Shown here: positions 779 through 46,807 of the stretch, piece after piece
Layout of the letters: each line of letters begins with the position of its first letter
Numbering within the stretch: the first letter of the stretch is position 1
IMG/VR virus record: IMGVR_UViG_3300043422_000208
Span: 1-52,432 of that record
Direction: 5' to 3' (one strand)
From: a virus
Lineage: Duplodnaviria > Caudoviricetes
Length of the DNA: 52,432 nucleotides
Notes under the pieces: generated by a model
Told to the model about the DNA's origin: nothing
Database searches by the model: none
Seen by the model: only the letters and a program-made list of their open reading frames with translations
Program-made: the position numbers and the translations under genes

Positions 779-979
779 ATGACATACCCTGTTTTGACTT
801 TGGAACAATACGATAAATTTGATGAACTACTGAGAAAGTATGCTAAAGAAGAAGACCAAGAAAACTATTTTAAAACTCTAGAAGAAATGGATCTTTTAGA
901 AAGAAAAGTTTTAAAAAATAGAAGAAAACCACCAACTACACCTAAACCAAATTCCAGAATAGAGACTAGAAATGATTAA
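779..979 (+). CDS. hypothetical protein
   Basis: 66-aa ORF that starts right after the upstream stop and overlaps the methylase start. Confidence 0.6.
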   Translation: MTYPVLTLEQYDKFDELLRKYAKEEDQENYFKTLEEMDLLERKVLKNRRKPPTTPKPNSRIETRND

Positions 980-1847
980 ATCTAATAAATATCTTACAAC
1001 TTTACCTAAACCTTTTCTGAAATATGCTGGAGGTAAGCAACAGCTTTTACCAGAAATCATTCCTAGAATCCCTAAAGATTTTAAAAGGTATTATGAACCT
1101 TTTCTTGGAGGTGGAGCAGTATTTTTTAAATTACGACCAAAAGATTTTCTTATTTCTGATGTTAATAAAGATTTAATTAGAACTTATCATGCTATTAGAG
1201 ATAATTTTAAGATTCTTTTTTTAGTAGAAAAAGCTTTTGAGAAATCTTATGGTGATTTAATTAATGAAGAAACTTTTTACATTTTAAGAGATATTTACAA
1301 TGGAAAAGTTACTTCTAAAGTAAGATTTGATCTTCTTTTACAGAAAGCTTACTTATTTATTTATTTAAACAAAACTTGTTTTAATGGCTTGCATAGAGTA
1401 AATGCTCATGGTGATTTTAATGTAGGTTTTGGTAAAACTTTCTATGATTCTGTGCTAGATAACAACAACCTCTTTCACTGCCATAAACATTTATCCCAAG
1501 GACAGATTCAATATGTAGATTTTAGGGAAGTATTGAAATGTCCTGAAGAAGGAGATTTTGTATTTTTAGATCCTCCATATATGCCAATTTCAGCAACTTC
1601 TAATTTTACTAATTATACTGCTGATGGCTTTACCTATAATGATCTTTGTGATCTTCATAGGTGTTGTTTAGAGTTAGATGCTAAAGGTGTTAAGTTCATG
1701 TTTTGTAACTCAGATTGTGAATTAGTGCATTCTATGTTTGAGGAGTTTAATGTAGAATTAGTAGAAGCTAGAAGATCTATTAACTCAGATGGTGAAAAAC
1801 GTGGTAAGATTAACGAAGTGTTGATTACTAATTATGAGGTTAATTAA
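972..1847 (+). CDS. dam: DNA adenine methyltransferase (D12 class, Dam-like)
   Basis: LKYAGGK, YEPFLGGGAV (motif I), DPPY (motif IV), FNGLHRVN and C-terminal EVLITNY. Confidence 0.93.
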   Translation: MIKSNKYLTTLPKPFLKYAGGKQQLLPEIIPRIPKDFKRYYEPFLGGGAVFFKLRPKDFLISDVNKDLIRTYHAIRDNFKILFLVEKAFEKSYGDLINEETFYILRDIYNGKVTSKVRFDLLLQKAYLFIYLNKTCFNGLHRVNAHGDFNVGFGKTFYDSVLDNNNLFHCHKHLSQGQIQYVDFREVLKCPEEGDFVFLDPPYMPISATSNFTNYTADGFTYNDLCDLHRCCLELDAKGVKFMFCNSDCELVHSMFEEFNVELVEARRSINSDGEKRGKINEVLITNYEVN

Positions 1848-20264: not shown

Positions 20265-20335
20265 TTTTAGATTAAATATAGAATAATGAATAAAAATGTG
20301 CTAAGATTATAACAGTTTCTTAGCACATTTTTATT

Positions 20336-21196
20336 ATGAATATTGTAGATTTTCTAAAAGCAGTAGTGGAAGATTTTGAAGAATTTGAAGAACCTATTAA
20401 AATTACTCCAAAGGGCACAATAGAAATTGGGGATGTTCAGATCCCACTATACAAAGAAATCTTAGCAACAGAAAAAGTAATCCTTGAATCAGTTCAATCT
20501 TTTCAAGAAAAACTTATTCAGGATTTAATGCTAGTCTTACAAAAAATTAAAGCAAAAACCAATCATGGTGATTTGAGCATGGAGGAGGCAGTACTTCGCC
20601 TTTTAAATGCAGTTAAAAATAAAGGTAATTACATTTTAAGAGAACCTACTTTAGTAACACAGTTTGATAGTTCTTTAATTTCAGGATATTCTGAATTAGT
20701 TTCTCTATATAATCCTCAGATTACCTATAACGATGATCTATCTTATGAGGTTGAATCTGTACTAATGGTTGAACTGAGGAGTTTCGTTAATTCCCATTTT
20801 GATAGTTGGGTTAATGTAGGAGTTCAAGGAAACTCATTAAAACAGTTGGTAGAAAACATCATCTACGAAACAAGTTTTATTGCTCCTGGTAATGATCAAA
20901 TTACTAATATCATTGATATCTTGGTTGAAACTATTCCTGAACAAATGTATAAAGACATAACTCTTTACGAGTTTGCACAAGGAAGCTATTTTATTCTACA
21001 TCTCTTAGCATATACGAGATTAGCAGTTTCTCACGATTTTACTAAATTTTCTTTGATTTCTGTTCTAAACGATGCTTTAGATGAAGCTAAAAAGGAATTT
21101 ACTATTCCAGATAAAAAATCTAAAAATAAAGCAAATCCTAAAGAAGTAGAAAAACCTCCTACAGAAGATGGAGGACAAACAACGGAAAAGCAGTAA
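20336..21196 (+). CDS. tail assembly chaperone (G-like, putative)
   Basis: Followed by an overlapping open -1 frame leading into 21256-21525. Confidence 0.45.
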   Translation: MNIVDFLKAVVEDFEEFEEPIKITPKGTIEIGDVQIPLYKEILATEKVILESVQSFQEKLIQDLMLVLQKIKAKTNHGDLSMEEAVLRLLNAVKNKGNYILREPTLVTQFDSSLISGYSELVSLYNPQITYNDDLSYEVESVLMVELRSFVNSHFDSWVNVGVQGNSLKQLVENIIYETSFIAPGNDQITNIIDILVETIPEQMYKDITLYEFAQGSYFILHLLAYTRLAVSHDFTKFSLISVLNDALDEAKKEFTIPDKKSKNKANPKEVEKPPTEDGGQTTEKQ

Positions 21197-23584: not shown

Positions 23585-24595
23585 ATGCTTAGCTATAATC
23601 CAATTTACTTTAACTTTAATCCTGATAGTTTAATTCGGTTTATTATTGAAATTGTTCCTTTTCATGTTTGCAGTGTTCCTGTAGTTATAGAGAAAAGTAC
23701 AGGTAGGGAAGTTCCAAATTCAATTATAGTTCCTTTAATTAAAGCTATTAAAAATAATTGGTGTAATGCTAGGTTGAAATCTAGGTCTATTCTTTTGGCT
23801 AGAGAAGATGGATCAGTTATGGTAACTATTCCTTTTGAAGAAATAGAAAAAACAGGTAAAATTTCTTATTATCAAAATAGAGTTATTGAAGTTAGAGATC
23901 CTGCTGATAATAAGATTAAAACTGGATTTTTAATGTATGGAGTAGATAGGTATTCTTCAGATTGTCATGAAGTCTATAATCAATCTCCTATTTTAACTGA
24001 AACAGTAATGGAGGCAATTTGTCTTTACAGAACTGTGCTTCGGAGATTGAAAGAAAGAGTAGAAGATAGTAACAATACTATGGTTAGTTTAGATGCTGAA
24101 TCTGGTGGAGCAAGTTTAGCAGAAACTTATCAGGAATTAGAAAGTCAATTTGCGTTAAAGAAAAGGATCTACGCTCCTAAAGGATCTTCTATACAAGGTG
24201 TAAATTTTGCTTTAGCAGATGTAGATACTTCTATAGAACCATTTTTAAAGAATATTAGTTTTGAAACAGGTATTCCTTTGTGGATGTTTGAGAGGAATAT
24301 TAACAATTCTCAGTTTATTTTAGAAGACAAAGAAGCATATCTTCAAAAATTGTTTTTAATGAATGTTCTAGAACCACTGAATTACATTTTTACTACTTGG
24401 GGTGTGGCTGTAGAAATACAAACTCCTTCTTTCCGAGCAGAATCGTTTAATATTGAAATGGCTTCAAAGTTAGCAGAAATTGACTATAAGAGAGCTGCTA
24501 CAGAGAGATTGGATGCAATCACTAAACAATTAGAGAATCCCCCAAAAGACGGAAAAATTCCTTCTGGGGGATCTGTAGGTGGTAGAACGCTTTAA
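23585..24595 (+). CDS. portal protein (DUF1073-like, short)
   Basis: KAIK..W..ARL...SILL, S.L..V, ISFETGIP and Y...LQ...LEPL portal pattern. Confidence 0.55.
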   Translation: MLSYNPIYFNFNPDSLIRFIIEIVPFHVCSVPVVIEKSTGREVPNSIIVPLIKAIKNNWCNARLKSRSILLAREDGSVMVTIPFEEIEKTGKISYYQNRVIEVRDPADNKIKTGFLMYGVDRYSSDCHEVYNQSPILTETVMEAICLYRTVLRRLKERVEDSNNTMVSLDAESGGASLAETYQELESQFALKKRIYAPKGSSIQGVNFALADVDTSIEPFLKNISFETGIPLWMFERNINNSQFILEDKEAYLQKLFLMNVLEPLNYIFTTWGVAVEIQTPSFRAESFNIEMASKLAEIDYKRAATERLDAITKQLENPPKDGKIPSGGSVGGRTL

Positions 24596-24622
24596 GTATC
24601 GATTTTGAGGTGGAGTTGGTTT

Positions 24623-24743
24623 TTATAAAGCTATTTCTGTAGTATGACTTTGGTTAATTAGCAAATTCAAATACTCTTTTTATGTTTTCTGTAAGATGTA
24701 GTAGATCAAGAAAACAATATTCTGTTACTGTGTACTTTTTCAT
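24623..24743 (-). pseudogene. frameshifted third paralog of the 24749/24984 small-protein family
   Basis: MKKYTVTEYCFLDLL N-terminus; the +1 frame gives EYLNLLINQSHTTEI, resembling KHLETMICTGVINEI. Confidence 0.4.
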
Positions 24744-24748
24744 GGCTA

Positions 24749-24994
24749 TTACTTTATATCCTTTTTTTCAATAAATTCAATTTTTTCTGTAGACATAAAA
24801 AGTATCATTTCATTTTCTATCATTCCTTCTATTATTGATTGTAGCTGATTATCAGTAATAACCATTTCTGCATTTTTTGGCATCTTAAGAGTAGCATAGT
24901 ATGTAGTAAATCTTAAGAGTTGTTTAAGAGTATACTCAGGTATGATGTAATGTTTATCTGTTTTAGGTATTTCAATTAAATCATTAAATTTCAT
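24749..24994 (-). CDS. hypothetical protein (paralog family)
   Basis: HYIIPEYTLKQLL; GGAG Shine-Dalgarno upstream. Confidence 0.6.
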   Translation of the reverse strand: MKFNDLIEIPKTDKHYIIPEYTLKQLLRFTTYYATLKMPKNAEMVITDNQLQSIIEGMIENEMILFMSTEKIEFIEKKDIK

Positions 24995-25184
24995 TTATTA
25001 CTCCTGTGCAGATCATTGTTTCTAGATGTTTATTGTATATCTTTTCAGGATCTCTTTCTATTGTTTTTTCATAATCATCAATAGCATCGTCTTCTTCTAA
25101 TAAAAGACCCAATATTATTTCTAAATGATTAATTCTTAGAATTAATTTTCTTAGTTCTTGTTCAGATATTGTGTAATTTTTCAT
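24984..25184 (-). CDS. hypothetical protein (paralog family)
   Basis: NYTISEQELRKLI. Confidence 0.6.
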   Translation of the reverse strand: MKNYTISEQELRKLILRINHLEIILGLLLEEDDAIDDYEKTIERDPEKIYNKHLETMICTGVINEI

Positions 25185-25320
25185 TGTATTTCTTCTTGTT
25201 GAGTAATAAAGTAAATCTCTCTTTTATAAGAATCTAGTAGAGACCTTAAATTTTCTACTTTATAGTTTAGAATTTTAAAAATCCTATTTTTAATAAATAA
25301 TCAATGCTATTGTCTTCCAT
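25181..25320 (-). pseudogene. small ORF with an apparent 1-nt deletion in an A-run
   Basis: MEDNSIDYLLK continues in the -1 frame as NRIFKILNYKVENL..., ending in an ATGA overlap with the next gene. Confidence 0.35.
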
Positions 25321-25346
25321 AACTGTTTCCAAGTAAACATGAAACT

Positions 25347-25375
25347 ATTCTACCACCTAGGCTAAAAATAAGCAA
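25347..25375 (-). promoter_or_regulatory. sigma70-type promoter
   Basis: TTGCTT-17 nt-TAGAAT with a TGG extension. Confidence 0.65.
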
Positions 25376-25376
25376 G

Positions 25377-25496
25377 AAAAAAGATCTTCTACTGTGAATA
25401 GAAGATCTTTTGCTAACTAGGTTGAGTTTTTACAAAGAAAATAAAAGTGCTTTCAAGAAAATGGAAGTAATTCCTAACAACTTTATTTGCTACTAT
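25377..25496 (-). ncRNA. candidate sRNA unit 3 (~118 nt)
   Basis: TGTGT-TATAGT -10 at 25503-25513; 5' AGUAGC; hairpin with UUAG/CUUGAAAG; 13-bp terminator 25379-25411 plus U-run. Confidence 0.6.
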
Positions 25497-25521
25497 ATGG
25501 TTACTATAACACAGAATAAAG

Positions 25522-25634
25522 AAAAATGGATCCTTAAAGGATCCATAATAGCCCAACTAAATTACAGCATAAAAATTAATTTAAATTAGTTTCAAGATTT
25601 TGCAGAATTTTCTAAATTTAAATAATTTCCTACT
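25522..25634 (-). ncRNA. candidate sRNA unit 2 (~113 nt)
   Basis: TGT-TAAGAT -10 at 25640-25648; 5' AGUAGG; long hairpin with UUAG/CUUGAAAC; terminator 25526-25546 plus U-run. Confidence 0.62.
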
Positions 25635-25652
25635 TCTTTATCTTAACATATT

Positions 25653-25817
25653 AAAAAAAAAATCACTAGCTATAACTAATGATCCTTAAAGATAAATAAT
25701 GTAGTCCAAACATGATATATGAAAGAAATCTTAACGGCGCAATTCCAAGAAAGATTACAACAGGTACAAGGAGGGTACCTATCTTTCTAATGACATCACG
25801 TTAAGATTCCTTCCACT
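25653..25817 (-). ncRNA. candidate sRNA unit 1 (~165 nt)
   Basis: TTGACA-16 nt-TATTAT promoter at 25823-25850; 5' AGUGG; 16-bp outer stem with two G-U pairs; apical loop CCUCCUU; terminator 25662-25683 plus U10. Confidence 0.7.
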
Positions 25818-25851
25818 TTTTAATAATAACACATTTTCCTCCCCTGTCAAC

Positions 25852-25883
25852 AAAAAAAAAAAGGTCGCTCTTTCAGACGACCT
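25852..25883 (-). terminator. terminator of the RNR operon
   Basis: AGGTCG/CGACCT stem followed by a long U-run on the minus strand. Confidence 0.75.
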
Positions 25884-25907
25884 ACAATGAATACTCACTT
25901 AAATTTA

Positions 25908-26729
25908 CTATACCATATCTTCTAGGACTCTACTGTAGAGAGTAGAGTTAGGCACCTCAAATGGTGCTATCTGAGGAGAGAAATTACAAAGAGAGTCTAG
26001 AGTGTTGGCTTTTCCTTTATTAATTAAATCTTCACTTGCTTTAATAAAGAAATTTAGATCTAACTTTATTCCAAAAATAGTTTTAGGAATAATAAGATCT
26101 CTAAAAATAAAATCCAAAGTATCTTTAACTAAACCATAGAAACTAGGCATCCTCTCAATCCCTAGCAAATGTAAACACTCCCAATTAGTTCGATAGTGCC
26201 TACTCTCATCCTTCCCGATCTCTGTAGCAGCATGACAAATAGATTTACCACCAGCTATTCTAAGTAACCCTAGGCATGGTAAAAGGACACCAGCCTCGAT
26301 CACAAATGCAGCTTGGATCGGATGGCAAGGAAGTTCTAGCCATCGAGAAGTAATTAAATCTGCTTCTGATTGATCTTCTGAAGAAATTGGGTATTGATCA
26401 ATAAGAAATTTTACACCTTTTAGATGGCTCGCCTCATCGGTAATGTTACTTTTGAGTAATAGAAGCAACCCATCTACTTCCGGTAAATCTCTTTTTGTAG
26501 CTTCTAAAATAAATTCACCTACTGGAATTTCTAATCTTAGTGCGATACTAAGAATTTTAGAAATAACAGATTCTACATTAAAAGATGGATCTACTTCTCT
26601 AGTCTCATCTGATAAGAAACATAGAGGAGTTTTTTCTACTTTTTGAGGTTTCCAGAAATGAGGTACTATTCTCCCATCTTCTTTAACGTAAGATCTGGAG
26701 CTGTATAATTCTCTAAATAAAGTTGTCAT
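25908..26729 (-). CDS. nrdB: ribonucleotide reductase beta subunit (cyanophage-type class I, ferritin-like)
   Basis: LEIPVGEFI, DEASH, IEAGV and DESRH dimetal motifs; downstream of alpha. ATG 26729 preferred. Confidence 0.8.
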   Translation of the reverse strand: MTTLFRELYSSRSYVKEDGRIVPHFWKPQKVEKTPLCFLSDETREVDPSFNVESVISKILSIALRLEIPVGEFILEATKRDLPEVDGLLLLLKSNITDEASHLKGVKFLIDQYPISSEDQSEADLITSRWLELPCHPIQAAFVIEAGVLLPCLGLLRIAGGKSICHAATEIGKDESRHYRTNWECLHLLGIERMPSFYGLVKDTLDFIFRDLIIPKTIFGIKLDLNFFIKASEDLINKGKANTLDSLCNFSPQIAPFEVPNSTLYSRVLEDMV

Positions 26730-26770
26730 TTGTTTTGTTGATTTATTTTGTTGATTTGACTTGTTTTGTT

Positions 26771-28462
26771 TTACTCTACACAATCACAGACAATACCCGA
26801 TTTTACATTAGAAACTCTGTCACCAACAGATTTCCTAATGTAGTCTTGGCTATATTGTTCATGCAGAGAATAGTACTTAGTGATACAAGGAGAATACAGA
26901 AATTTCTTAATCTCTAATTCAGAAGCTTCTTCGATCCAGTCCATTGAGATACAATGAGGGCGACCGAATCTATTCATAAAATCTTGCCAAAGGCTATTTA
27001 ATTCAAAATAGAGATCTTTACCAATATTTGCTAATGTCTCTACATCTCCATGGTAGACTGTAACATTTTTTTCTATATTGCTAACTCGATTCTCAAATTG
27101 GCCTAAAGGTGGCCAAATTCCCCTACATAAAGAATTGCCTTCTCGATCTTCCACATCATAAGCATGAAATTGTGCAGGTTCAACACAATGAATCCTTTCT
27201 AGTTTAGGGAATCCATATTTGGCTGACATCTCATCACAAACTCTAATTGATTCTTGAAATCCTTTTAGAATTGCTTTAATGATCCTTTGTAGTTTTGTTA
27301 GATCTTCATCAAAGACGTACCAATACATTTCTTTTATAATAAACTCTTTACCTGCTTCTACAAATTGTTTATAGGTGAATCCTTCAATGGCAAGCAGATT
27401 AGCTAAACCAAAAACATCTAAACCAATTTGTAGATCTTTTTCTACAGGGATAAAGATACTCCCATCTGTATAATTTCTCCATTCATAGTGTAATTCAATC
27501 AAATTCCTAGCAGCATCAGCAAATGCTTTAGGGATATCATTGATTCTACATAGACCTAAGTTTACTCTCCAAATTAAACAAGTAGCTTTGTGTTCTAGAA
27601 GAATACCATTACAAACGTTTTCATATAGTCCTGGTTGATCAAGAATTTTAGCTAAAAAGCTCGATTCAGAATTACAAGAATCTGCAATTTTTCGTACAAG
27701 AGCAGGATTAGAAAGAACATTTTTATCTATCCTAATTCCTTTTTTATGAGATCCGTCTATATCTACAATAGGCGTATCTAAGTAATCTTCTATGTACTTG
27801 CTTCGATAATCCATAGAAGATACTATAATACCTTTCTTGTATCCTCCTCTTCTCATAACACTATTAAGAGTTCCTAGAAGACGAATTAAATTGTAGATTG
27901 TAGGTGAGTTTAAGAAAATTCCTAGTTGCCTAGAAATATTAATAAAACTTAAAGCACCGCTAGATACTAATCCTTTACTATTCTCTGTACCAGCAGGACG
28001 AAGATTAGAAAAATTAAAAGAAGGATTTTCTCCTCGATCTGCACAATCGATCATGAACTTCCAAGATTCAATAATCCCATCTGTTCCCTCCATAGAATCT
28101 TGAATATCGAACTCTTTGTAATCTACAAATTGTCTTAGTTGATTAGGAGGATCGGTCTCTAGCCGATACTTGATAAACTCCCCATATTCTTCTGAAGAAT
28201 TATCAACAAAACAATCCCAAACAAAATCTTTACGATAGCCTAGATCTGCATCTTGATTAAAAATTACTTTTACACCAGCTCCAGCTTTTAGTGATCTTGC
28301 TGCAAAACTCAGCAGATCAAAAAGATCGCCATTCCACACAAATAAAGTGCAGGATGGCGGCAAAGTGTTTTTTTCTGGATTAAGAAGAAAAGTTCTGATT
28401 CTACCCGGAGCAGTGTTAGTAGATTCTAGTAAATCTTCTTTTTTTAAATTAAAAACTGACAT
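26771..28462 (-). CDS. nrdA: ribonucleotide reductase alpha subunit (cyanophage-type class I, divergent)
   Basis: SCTLFV, DSMEG.DGI.ESW, LRPAGTEN..GLVSSG, RRGGYKKG, NVC, TCL..VNLG, QIGL...GLANLLA, KYY and C-terminal CDC. Confidence 0.88.
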   Translation of the reverse strand: MSVFNLKKEDLLESTNTAPGRIRTFLLNPEKNTLPPSCTLFVWNGDLFDLLSFAARSLKAGAGVKVIFNQDADLGYRKDFVWDCFVDNSSEEYGEFIKYRLETDPPNQLRQFVDYKEFDIQDSMEGTDGIIESWKFMIDCADRGENPSFNFSNLRPAGTENSKGLVSSGALSFINISRQLGIFLNSPTIYNLIRLLGTLNSVMRRGGYKKGIIVSSMDYRSKYIEDYLDTPIVDIDGSHKKGIRIDKNVLSNPALVRKIADSCNSESSFLAKILDQPGLYENVCNGILLEHKATCLIWRVNLGLCRINDIPKAFADAARNLIELHYEWRNYTDGSIFIPVEKDLQIGLDVFGLANLLAIEGFTYKQFVEAGKEFIIKEMYWYVFDEDLTKLQRIIKAILKGFQESIRVCDEMSAKYGFPKLERIHCVEPAQFHAYDVEDREGNSLCRGIWPPLGQFENRVSNIEKNVTVYHGDVETLANIGKDLYFELNSLWQDFMNRFGRPHCISMDWIEEASELEIKKFLYSPCITKYYSLHEQYSQDYIRKSVGDRVSNVKSGIVCDCVE

Positions 28463-29373: not shown

Positions 29374-29447
29374 AAAATAATCAAAGATTAGTGTAATTTA
29401 ATTGTAACACTAATCTTTGATTATAGAAGGATTATAGTAGATCTAAC

Positions 29448-46725: not shown

Positions 46726-46807
46726 TTTGTTTTCTCTTTATTAATTTTAGGTGGCTTATTTATTTGCCAGTGATAACACTGTAACATAAAATAATTGACA
46801 ATACAAG

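What the first reader, a model, noticed from the sequence alone, without database searches (positions are those of the whole stretch)
25377..25850. Tandem array of three self-contained sRNA cassettes with a shared scaffold and variable 3' segment
Seen: the largest gap in the ORF track parses on the minus strand into three units of promoter, RNA and intrinsic terminator. Each promoter abuts or overlaps the previous terminator. All three predicted RNAs begin AGU(A/G)G, 6-9 nt after a TGT-extended -10 (25817, 25634, 25494). Each forms a long 5' hairpin with UUAG(A/G)AA on one side and UCUUG(A/G)AA on the other. Each then carries an unrelated ~25-37-nt single-stranded segment before the terminator. 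Stem sequences differ but pairing is kept, and the G-U pairs work only on the minus strand. GATCCTTAAAG recurs at 25529 and 25681, which suggests origin by duplication. Inference: a phage sRNA family with a protein-binding scaffold and a variable guide or antisense module. It could be guides for a host or phage RNA-guided protein, decoys against host defence, or silencers of host mRNAs. I recognise no known family and no Cas or TnpB protein in the window.
Basis: partly seen in the sequence, partly recalled or inferred. Interest (0 to 1): 0.88.

Follow-up and report, generated by a model that had tools for sequence, protein, structure and literature searches.

The report
Three tiny gene-less phage transcription units
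The largest gene-free gap of an uncultured freshwater phage holds three back-to-back promoter-to-terminator mini-units that probably make small RNAs, but only one folds convincingly, the claimed shared scaffold is barely above chance, and no relatives, targets or transcripts could be found.

Summary
The cassette layout is real. On the minus strand of 25377-25886, four intrinsic-terminator-like hairpins each lie just upstream of a TG-extended -10 promoter. That promoter form also precedes ordinary genes in this phage. The junctions bracket three ORF-less bodies of about 166, 113 and 118 nt.

The "shared scaffold plus variable guide" reading is not supported:
- Only unit 1 has a hairpin better than shuffles (z -6.3). 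Units 2 and 3 do not (z -0.3 and -0.2).
- RNAalifold finds no common structure for units 2 and 3.
- A covariance model of unit 1 does not recover units 2 or 3.
- Words shared by the three bodies are no more numerous than in shuffles. Their collinear order is borderline (15 of 300 shuffles match it).

No match was found in Rfam or in 50,697 phage records, and no relative in IMG/VR, JGI contigs, GTDB contigs or sampled cyanobacterial genomes. No target was found in the phage. The only close relatives sit on contigs I could not fetch. Two studies' freshwater metagenomes carry the array unchanged, so there is no covariation data.

Best reading (0.42): orphan phage small-RNA genes in a PeSL-like terminator/promoter array. 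The main rival is insulating or shuffling cassettes with no RNA function. This scan has reported similar arrays on other phage DNA. It is a new member of a known kind, of modest interest.

The parts
25851..25883 (-). T0: intrinsic terminator closing the RNR-like operon (stem 25883-25862, then a run of 11 T)
   Evidence: -9.9 kcal/mol
25823..25850 (-). P1: TTGACA-16-TATTAT with TG-extended -10
   Evidence: 11 of 12 matches
25652..25817 (-). Unit 1, predicted RNA of about 166 nt. It has a 99-nt three-tier hairpin (25817-25719) with a CCUCCUU apical loop, a single-stranded tail and terminator T1 (25687-25658, then 10 U).
   Evidence: z -6.32; 0 of 500 shuffles; 4 G-U pairs; plus strand 10 kcal/mol weaker
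25640..25648 (-). P2: TG-extended -10 (TGTTAAGAT) with no recognisable -35
   Evidence: not listed by the two-hexamer scan
25522..25634 (-). Unit 2, predicted RNA of about 113 nt. The body is AU-rich with no structure beyond shuffles. Terminator T2 is at 25546-25526.
   Evidence: z -0.29
25503..25511 (-). P3: TG-extended -10 (TGTTATAGT)
25377..25494 (-). Unit 3, predicted RNA of about 118 nt. The body is AU-rich with no structure beyond shuffles. Terminator T3 is at 25411-25379.
   Evidence: (z -0.24)
25347..25375 (-). P4: TTGCTT-17-TAGAAT with TG. It drives the leader and the two small acidic ORFs at 24984-25184 and 24749-24994.

Best explanation
The stretch is a row of three very short, protein-less transcription units on the minus strand. 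They sit between the ribonucleotide-reductase-like operon and a small operon of two acidic mini-proteins, in an uncultured freshwater phage whose replication genes resemble those of cyanophages.

Seen in the sequence: each unit starts a few bases after a TG-extended -10 promoter of the type this phage uses before its ordinary genes. Each unit ends 113-166 nt later at a hairpin with a U tract. Every terminator abuts the next promoter.

Inferred: host sigma-70 RNA polymerase makes three discrete small RNAs.
- Unit 1 is a stable 99-nt hairpin RNA with a pyrimidine-rich apical loop.
- Units 2 and 3 are AU-rich, essentially unstructured RNAs. They are probably diverged duplicates of each other.

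They most likely act in trans as regulatory or decoy RNAs on host factors or host mRNAs. If the short shared words (AGURG, UUAGRAA, UCUUGRAA) mean anything, they are more likely duplication remnants or a shared seed, as in sibling sRNAs, than a protein-binding scaffold. Nothing shows that the variable 3' segments are guides.
For: - Terminator clustering: 5 sites in 1.3 kb against 0.3 +/- 0.5 in shuffles. 4 of the 18 minus-strand sites in the 52 kb window fall within 505 nt.
- P1 matches the consensus at 11 of 12 positions, with TG.
- P2-P4 share the TG-extended -10 form found before ordinary genes. On the minus strand TGTTANNNT occurs 29 times. Six of these were counted as intergenic in a genome that is 94% coding. 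A seventh site, P3, was masked by a spurious ORF in my crude gene map.
- There is no credible ORF.
- RNA-level strand asymmetry supports unit 1 and T1.
- Unit 1 fold: z -5.35 for the whole unit, z -6.32 for the hairpin.
- Units 2 and 3 align with 38 identical columns. An 11-nt exact repeat links T1 and T2.
- The array is identical in contigs from two studies' freshwater metagenomes.
Against: - No transcript evidence exists.
- No homologue was found anywhere I could search, so there is no test of selection or covariation.
- Units 2 and 3 fold no better than shuffles.
- Shared words among the three bodies are at chance level, and their order is only borderline.
- No target was found in the phage.
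- P2 and P3 lack a -35 and were not listed by the two-hexamer scan.
- The metagenome contigs are near-identical over the whole 2.2 kb and may be the source of this record. Their identity therefore says nothing about constraint.
Confidence: 0.42

Rival explanations
1. This is a PeSL-like regulatory cassette array without functional RNAs. The terminator/promoter junctions insulate the RNR operon from the downstream small-ORF operon and serve as recombination or shuffling points. The three bodies are empty or decayed cargo slots whose transcripts have no role.
For: - Every terminator abuts a sigma-70-type promoter, which is the composite layout described for PeSLs. They lie in plastic regions next to ORFans and nrd genes (PMC2839356, abstract and section 13 read; PMC4122927, abstract and passages).
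- The fourth junction does drive small ORFs of no known family.
- Two other promoters of this phage have stem-loops around the -10 box.
- The bodies of units 2 and 3 look like unconstrained AU-rich sequence.
Against: - The four junctions are not repeated copies of one motif. In pairwise alignments of the promoter regions, 130 to 727 of 1000 shuffles reach the observed score. Homologous exchange between them is therefore not evident.
- The unit 1 body is a highly non-random, strand-specific hairpin.
- PeSLs are described in T4-type myoviruses and are followed by a ribosome-binding site and a start codon. Three of the four junctions here are not.
Confidence: 0.25
2. This is the first reader's model: one sRNA family with a conserved protein-binding hairpin scaffold and an exchangeable guide or antisense segment before the terminator.
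For: - The AGURG, UUAGRAA and UCUUGRAA words are collinear in all three units, and the combined pattern occurs nowhere else in the window.
- The collinear chain of shared words is reached by only 15 of 300 shuffles.
- The segments before the terminators are unrelated to each other.
Against: - Hairpins of units 2 and 3 are at shuffle level.
- No consensus structure was found.
- The unit 1 model does not find units 2 or 3.
- The count of shared words is at chance level.
- No RNA-guided protein family appeared among the 30 ORFs scanned.
- No matches for the variable segments were found.
Confidence: 0.07
3. The units are CRISPR-repeat mimics (RNA anti-CRISPR or solitary repeat units) or single-repeat mini-crRNAs. 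The stretch ending in UCUUGAAA(C/G) imitates the 3' end of a host type I/III repeat, and the following segment is loaded or sequesters Cas proteins.
For: - Units 2 and 3 carry the octamer followed by about 40 nt and a terminator, directly downstream of a promoter and away from cas genes. That layout matches the one described for solitary repeat units and Racrs (PMC10651486, abstract and passages read).
- Real CRISPR arrays whose repeats end in this 9-mer exist, including one in a cyanobacterial genome (L143, L152, L250).
Against: - None of the 120 loci returned has TTAGRAA upstream of the 9-mer or resembles the units. The best ungapped identity is 15 of 28 against a background of 9.8 +/- 2.0.
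- The three 'repeats' differ from each other, and unit 1 has GGAA and a 33-nt spacing.
- The host and its CRISPR repeats are unknown.
- That GAAAC/GAAAG is a common repeat ending is recalled, not tested.
Confidence: 0.05
4. There is one long leader from P1 with three serial attenuators that gate the mini-protein operon by antitermination. P2 and P3 are not real promoters.
For: - Only P1 has both hexamers.
- The terminators are in series on the strand of the downstream operon.
- A short word recurs before each terminator.
Against: - P2, P3 and P4 match the phage's own promoter form.
- P4 has TTGCTT-17-TAGAAT with TG directly before the operon, which makes a 630-nt leader unnecessary.
- The recurring words lie 40-60 nt upstream of the terminators and do not overlap them.
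- No antiterminator protein family was seen in the ORFs scanned.
Confidence: 0.08
5. The gap is a DNA-level element, such as a replication origin or a protein-binding region. The promoters and hairpins act in priming or binding, not in making RNAs with a role.
For: - It is the largest non-coding, AT-rich gap, with several promoters and palindromes.
- TWGRAA words are spaced 19, 20 and 41 nt apart (from the coordinates).
I did not test that.
Against: - There are no iterons.
- G-U-dependent strand asymmetry points to RNA, not DNA, for unit 1 and T1.
- Cumulative GC skew simply follows gene orientation.
Confidence: 0.05

Closest known systems
PeSL (promoter-early stem-loop) cassettes of T4-type phages (Arbiol et al. 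2010, PMC2839356; Comeau et al. 2014, PMC4122927)
   Same: - Both are composite intergenic elements in which a terminator stem-loop sits against a strong sigma-70-type promoter.
- Both are packed in series in a variable region next to small ORFs of unknown function and nucleotide-metabolism genes.
   Different: - The four junctions here share no significant sequence.
- Three of the four are followed by ORF-less bodies instead of a ribosome-binding site and an ORFan.
- This phage is not T4-like.
- No mini-circles or indel comparisons are available.
Tandem 'sibling' sRNA genes of bacteria (Qrr1-5, LhrC1-5, OmrA/B; names recalled, not tested here)
   Same: Both are several small RNA genes in a row, each with its own promoter and intrinsic terminator, sharing short conserved words while the rest diverges.
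   Different: - Paralogy here is only weakly supported statistically.
- No chaperone, seed or target is known.
- The genes are encoded by a phage.
RNA anti-CRISPRs / viral solitary repeat units (Camara-Wilpert et al. 2023, PMC10651486)
   Same: Both are promoter-proximal small non-coding RNA genes in phage intergenic DNA. Two units here contain an octamer that also ends some CRISPR repeats.
   Different: - No CRISPR repeat resembling the units was found.
- The units differ from each other.
- The host is unknown.
Similar ORF-less promoter-to-terminator arrays reported earlier by this scan in other phages (e1-5611569, e1-5348423, e1-5754587, e1-5746641)
   Same: The overall architecture is the same, and so is the state of the evidence: sequence-level cassettes with no transcripts.
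   Different: - There is no sequence relation to them (one search found look-alikes only in this genome).
- Some of those arrays had homologues or antisense targets. This one has neither.

Membership tests
Any Rfam 15 family | Match at or above the family's gathering score | tested here: not met
   There were 0 matches in the whole window. At E<=10 on 25150-25950 there were 8 weak matches. The best was RefA9 at 32.3 bits against a gathering score of 49. The three whose alignments were printed rest largely on the terminator 3 hairpin.
PeSL cassettes | Composite of a sigma-70-like promoter and a stem-loop terminator in intergenic DNA | tested here: met
   Four junctions were found: T0/P1, T1/P2, T2/P3 and T3/P4.
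PeSL cassettes | Copies form a repeated, conserved sequence motif that can recombine | tested here: not met
   In pairwise local alignments of the four 43-nt promoter regions, 130 to 727 of 1000 shuffles reach the observed score.
PeSL cassettes | Followed directly by a ribosome-binding site and the start of a small ORF(an) | tested here: not met
   This is true only of P4, and with a leader of about 150 nt. Units 1-3 have no credible ORF.
RNA anti-CRISPR (Racr) / solitary repeat unit | Sequence and structure similarity to a CRISPR repeat | tested here: inconclusive
   I scanned genome contigs for arrays with the 9-mer three times at 50-75 nt spacing. None resembles the units, and the best identity is 15 of 28. 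The host's repeats are unknown.
RNA anti-CRISPR (Racr) / solitary repeat unit | Promoter within about 250 bp upstream, intergenic, not next to cas genes | tested here: met
   No Cas family appeared in the 30 ORFs scanned with Pfam. The remaining ORFs of 80 aa or more were not scanned.
Guide-RNA systems (crRNA, tracrRNA, omega/reRNA) | Conserved scaffold structure shared by the copies | tested here: not met
   
Guide-RNA systems (crRNA, tracrRNA, omega/reRNA) | Partner effector gene (Cas, TnpB, IscB) in the element | tested here: inconclusive
   No such family appeared in the 30 ORFs scanned. Most of this phage's proteins match no Pfam family, and the record is estimated 66% complete.
Sibling sRNA family | Paralogous genes with significant sequence similarity, including a shared seed | tested here: inconclusive
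   Shuffles reaching the observed alignment score: u2-u3 56 of 1000, u1-u3 11 of 1000, u1-u2 721 of 1000. The collinear chain of shared words is reached by 15 of 300 shuffles. The count of shared words is at chance level.
Sibling sRNA family | Discrete transcripts | not testable with these tools
   No RNA data could be laid on the stretch.

The most novel reading that the evidence does not exclude
The units are phage-made imitations of host CRISPR RNAs. Each promoter drives one repeat-like stretch ending in UCUUGAAA(C/G), followed by a spacer-length segment and a terminator. The products would either soak up Cas6 or Cas7-type proteins of a cyanobacterial type I/III system (RNA anti-CRISPR) or be loaded as single-repeat crRNAs that turn the host system against competing phages. 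Unit 1 would be a diverged or differently acting member.
Probability: 0.05. Interest if true: 0.8.

Novelty: new member of a known kind. Interest (0 to 1): 0.33.

Why it matters
Rows of promoter-to-terminator mini-units without ORFs keep turning up in phage genomes, and this scan has reported several. Almost none has been tested. If the three RNAs are made, unit 1 in particular would be a candidate for a new phage regulatory or decoy RNA. It is a strongly folded, strand-specific 99-nt hairpin with a pyrimidine-rich loop, in a lineage with cyanophage-like replication genes and almost no known proteins.

As it stands this is an orphan. It has no homologues, no targets and no transcripts. The feature that drew the high first score, a common scaffold with swappable guides, does not survive controls for the AT-rich composition.

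Tried and rejected
- **Rfam.** No family at gathering score. The weak hits whose alignments I saw rest on the terminator 3 hairpin. No tRNA or tmRNA.
- **DNA similarity to 50,697 phage records.** None at E<=1e-5 for 24000-27500. For the 484-nt array at E<=1, 16 records matched; those listed lie within query positions 205-282, in the AT-rich unit 2, best E 0.04.
- **Relatives through neighbouring proteins in IMG/VR.**
  - RNR-beta-like: 5 loci at 29-34% identity, none with the motif.
  - RNR-alpha-like: none.
- **Relatives in JGI metagenome contigs.** 4 loci at 35% identity or less.
- **Relatives in GTDB genome contigs.** None.
- **Large protein collection.** It holds relatives at 79% identity (a 4072-bp contig) and 74% identity (a 1058-bp contig).
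- **IMG/VR pattern scan.**
  - Pattern: AGTAG..TTAGRAA..TCTTGRAA.
  - In my screen of 125 pattern matches (the fetched loci plus the window's own three), the best non-window one (L114) lies inside an ORF on the other strand.
  - Units 2 and 3 did not reach the top 30 by arm-pairing energy.
- **Cyanobacterial genomes, BLAST of the array.** 401 genomes gave only scattered low-complexity matches, best E 3.1e-5, most of those listed within unit 2. Three named MAGs gave chance-level matches.
- **Cyanobacterial genomes, unit 1 model.** 0 of 151 genomes matched. There was no positive control, so this shows little.
- **Microcystis phage Mic1.** It has a 1.7-kb unannotated gap downstream of its RNR. 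There is no comparable cassette row (3 terminator-like sites against 1.8 expected), and the neighbouring protein is unrelated.
- **Targets in the phage.**
  - Genome-wide duplex scan: best trans hits at about z -4 to -5 among about 13,000 windows. The best hit of the unit 2 tail lies opposite a plus-strand gene.
  - 50 translation-start regions: no segment beat shuffled queries (12 to 59 of 60 shuffles did at least as well).
- **Anti-Shine-Dalgarno idea for the unit 1 loop.** Only 13 of 43 genes have even a loose SD. The apex gave no start-region hit above shuffles.
- **Sequencing runs.** No RNA holder was listed. The four DNA runs (2 samples, 2 studies) hold the stretch near-identically and may be its source. 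Short low-depth contigs of a diverged relative covered only part of the RNR-beta gene, not the array.
- **Literature searches.** They turned up no description of such an array in cyanophages. Supplementary files of papers were closed and may hold Racr candidate lists that bear on the CRISPR-mimic reading.
Full report
**What the window is**

The window is a complete IMG/VR virus record of 52,432 bp. It is classed as having inverted terminal repeats, and CheckV estimates it 66% complete. G+C is about 31%. Four freshwater metagenome runs from two samples and two studies hold the 2.2 kb around the finding almost unchanged.

Most proteins match nothing in Pfam. The two genes upstream of the finding are ribonucleotide-reductase-like (phrog_367 and phrog_6799).
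- The alpha-like protein matches 56 phage records, which by name are all cyanophages or uncultured marine phages.
- The large polymerase matches 8 records, all cyanophages, annotated as DNA polymerase or DNA polymerase gamma.
- The terminase hits are taxonomically mixed.
- Only 13 of 43 genes have even a loose Shine-Dalgarno sequence.

A cyanobacterial host is therefore plausible but not shown.

**The observation**

The stretch 25185-25907 is the largest non-coding gap. The few ORFs of 30 aa or more inside it start with TTG or GTG and run across terminators.

On the minus strand the RNR-like operon ends at 25908. Then come, in order:
- T0: stem 25883-25862, then 11 T.
- P1: TTGACA-16-TATTAT with TG, 11 of 12 matches.
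- Body 1 and T1 (25687-25658, then 10 T).
- P2: TG-extended -10 at 25648-25640.
- Body 2 and T2 (25546-25526).
- P3: TG-extended -10 at 25511-25503.
- Body 3 and T3 (25411-25379).
- P4: TTGCTT-17-TAGAAT with TG.
- A leader of about 150 nt and two small acidic ORFs.

The terminator scan found 5 sites in 1.3 kb against 0.3 +/- 0.5 in shuffles. My own whole-window scan found 18 minus-strand sites under the same rule, four of them within 25379-25883. One of those four is the inner hairpin of unit 1. T1 needs the looser rule of two G-C pairs.

The TG-extended -10 of the form TGTTAnnnT or TGnTAnnnT also precedes ordinary genes at 46786, 29409, 20314, 28502 and 7995. P2 and P3 lack a -35 but fit the phage's own promoter type.

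The stated motifs are at the stated places. The combined pattern occurs three times in the whole window, all here. The 11-nt repeat is exact. The cassette layout is therefore real.

**The shared scaffold**

- Hairpins taken alone: unit 1 is far better than dinucleotide shuffles (-36.7 kcal/mol, z -6.32, 0 of 500). Units 2 and 3 are not (z -0.29, 173 of 500; z -0.24, 182 of 500).
- The whole-unit z-scores of units 2 and 3 (-1.19 and -2.66) come from their terminators. Their plus strands fold as well as their minus strands.
- MAFFT aligns units 2 and 3 with 38 identical columns, but RNAalifold predicts no pair on that alignment.
- A covariance model of the unit 1 hairpin, run over the window with filters off, gives 29 matches at E<=10. 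They include itself, its own reverse strand, and two promoter-overlapping palindromes at 29375-29425 and 20289-20336. Neither the unit 2 nor the unit 3 hairpin is among them.
- Words of 7 nt shared by all three bodies with up to one mismatch number 12, against 11.5 +/- 4.2 in shuffles.
- Their longest collinear chain is 4 against 2.46 +/- 0.65, reached by 15 of 300 shuffles.
- Pairwise local alignments are marginal for u2-u3 (56 of 1000) and u1-u3 (11 of 1000, but in a different register), and null for u1-u2 (721 of 1000).

Units 2 and 3 are probably diverged duplicates. The kinship of unit 1 is doubtful. A conserved hairpin scaffold is not supported.

What does hold is strand specificity at the RNA level for unit 1 and T1. 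Each has four G-U pairs and is 10 and 8 kcal/mol weaker on the plus strand.

**Search for relatives and known families**

- Rfam gave nothing at gathering score. The weak hits whose alignments I saw rest on the terminator 3 hairpin.
- No phage record resembles the region.
- Neighbouring proteins found only distant relatives in IMG/VR (29-34% identity, without the motif) and in JGI contigs. They found none in GTDB contigs.
- A large protein collection holds two relatives of the RNR-beta-like protein at 79% and 74% identity, on short contigs.
- A pattern scan of IMG/VR gave chance-level single hits.
- A BLAST of the array against 401 cyanobacterial genomes found no homologue. The unit 1 model found none in 151 genomes, but that search had no positive control.
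- The metagenome contigs differ from the window only in the length of two T runs (at 25652 and 25852) and by an 11-nt deletion at 25292 in one run.

No covariation test is therefore possible.

**Tests of specific mechanisms**

Guide or antisense module:
- No segment pairs with any of 50 translation-start regions of the phage better than shuffled queries do.
- The genome-wide scan gives only ordinary extremes.
- Nothing protospacer-like turned up in known phages.

CRISPR mimicry:
- I scanned GTDB contigs for three copies of the 9-mer at array-like spacing. Real arrays with repeats ending in that word exist, for example L152, L250 and the cyanobacterial L143.
The best identity is 15 of 28 against a background of 9.8 +/- 2.0.
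- Racrs are defined by likeness to a repeat plus a nearby promoter (PMC10651486, abstract and passages). Only the promoter criterion is met.

PeSL:
- An earlier report of this scan pointed me to PeSLs.
- These are composite promoter/stem-loop elements, dense in plastic regions next to ORFans and nrd genes, that insulate and shuffle small genes (PMC2839356, abstract and section 13; PMC4122927, abstract and passages).
- The four junctions here have that layout, and two other promoters of this phage have stems around the -10 box.
- The junctions are not copies of one motif, and three of them are followed by no ORF.

**Verdict**

My best reading, at 0.42, is three orphan phage small-RNA genes in a PeSL-like terminator/promoter array, transcribed by the host polymerase.
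- Unit 1 is a structured RNA.
- Units 2 and 3 are unstructured AU-rich siblings.
- All three would act in trans on unknown host targets.

The promoter, terminator and fold features are read directly from the sequence. That RNAs are made, and what they do, is inferred.

| Rival | Confidence |
|---|---|
| The junctions are the functional parts and the bodies are filler | 0.25 |
| Leader with serial attenuators | 0.08 |
| CRISPR mimic | 0.05 |
| DNA-level element | 0.05 |

It is a new member of a known kind. This scan has already reported similar ORF-less cassette arrays on other phage DNA, with no sequence relation to this one.

Noticed in passing
window 29375-29425 and 20289-20336: Long near-perfect palindromes enclose the -10 box of two promoters, TGTTACAAT before the C39-like peptidase gene and TGTTATAAT at 20314. 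They look like operators or PeSL-type stem-loops overlapping the promoter.
   Followed up: partly
window 972-1847 and whole window: A D12-class N6-adenine methyltransferase gene is present (Pfam E 1.2e-55). GATC occurs 281 times, roughly twice my back-of-envelope expectation from base composition. Terminators T2 and T3 and the flank of T1 contain GATC.
   Followed up: no
window 25292, 25652, 25852: Metagenome contigs differ from the window by an 11-nt deletion in the leader of the mini-protein operon (one run). They also differ by 1-2 extra or missing bases in the T runs of T1 and T0.
   Followed up: no
window 26207-26411: Short, low-depth contigs in three of the four runs match part of the RNR-beta-like gene with about 6-13% differences. 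A diverged relative therefore co-occurs in the same lakes.
   Followed up: no
window 25908-26783: The two closest relatives of the RNR-beta-like protein start at the residue aligned with M19. The real start is therefore probably the ATG at 26729, not the TTG at 26783.
   Followed up: partly
window 24749-25184: The two small ORFs downstream of the array encode acidic proteins of 66 and 81 aa. They have no Pfam match passing the curated cut-off and no PHROG match (one sub-threshold TPR_1 hit, E 0.0078), and they are not hydrophobic toxins.
   Followed up: partly
L269 5872-7585 (Microcystis phage Mic1): A 1.7-kb stretch downstream of the Mic1 RNR region carries no annotation. It contains open frames of 110 and 74 aa.
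   Followed up: no
L143, L152, L250, L140, L153-L157 and L207 (GTDB contigs): CRISPR arrays of several unrelated lineages have repeats that contain or end in the same 9-mer as units 2 and 3. The lineages include a Leptolyngbyaceae cyanobacterium, Desulfurococcales and Chitinophagaceae.
   Followed up: partly
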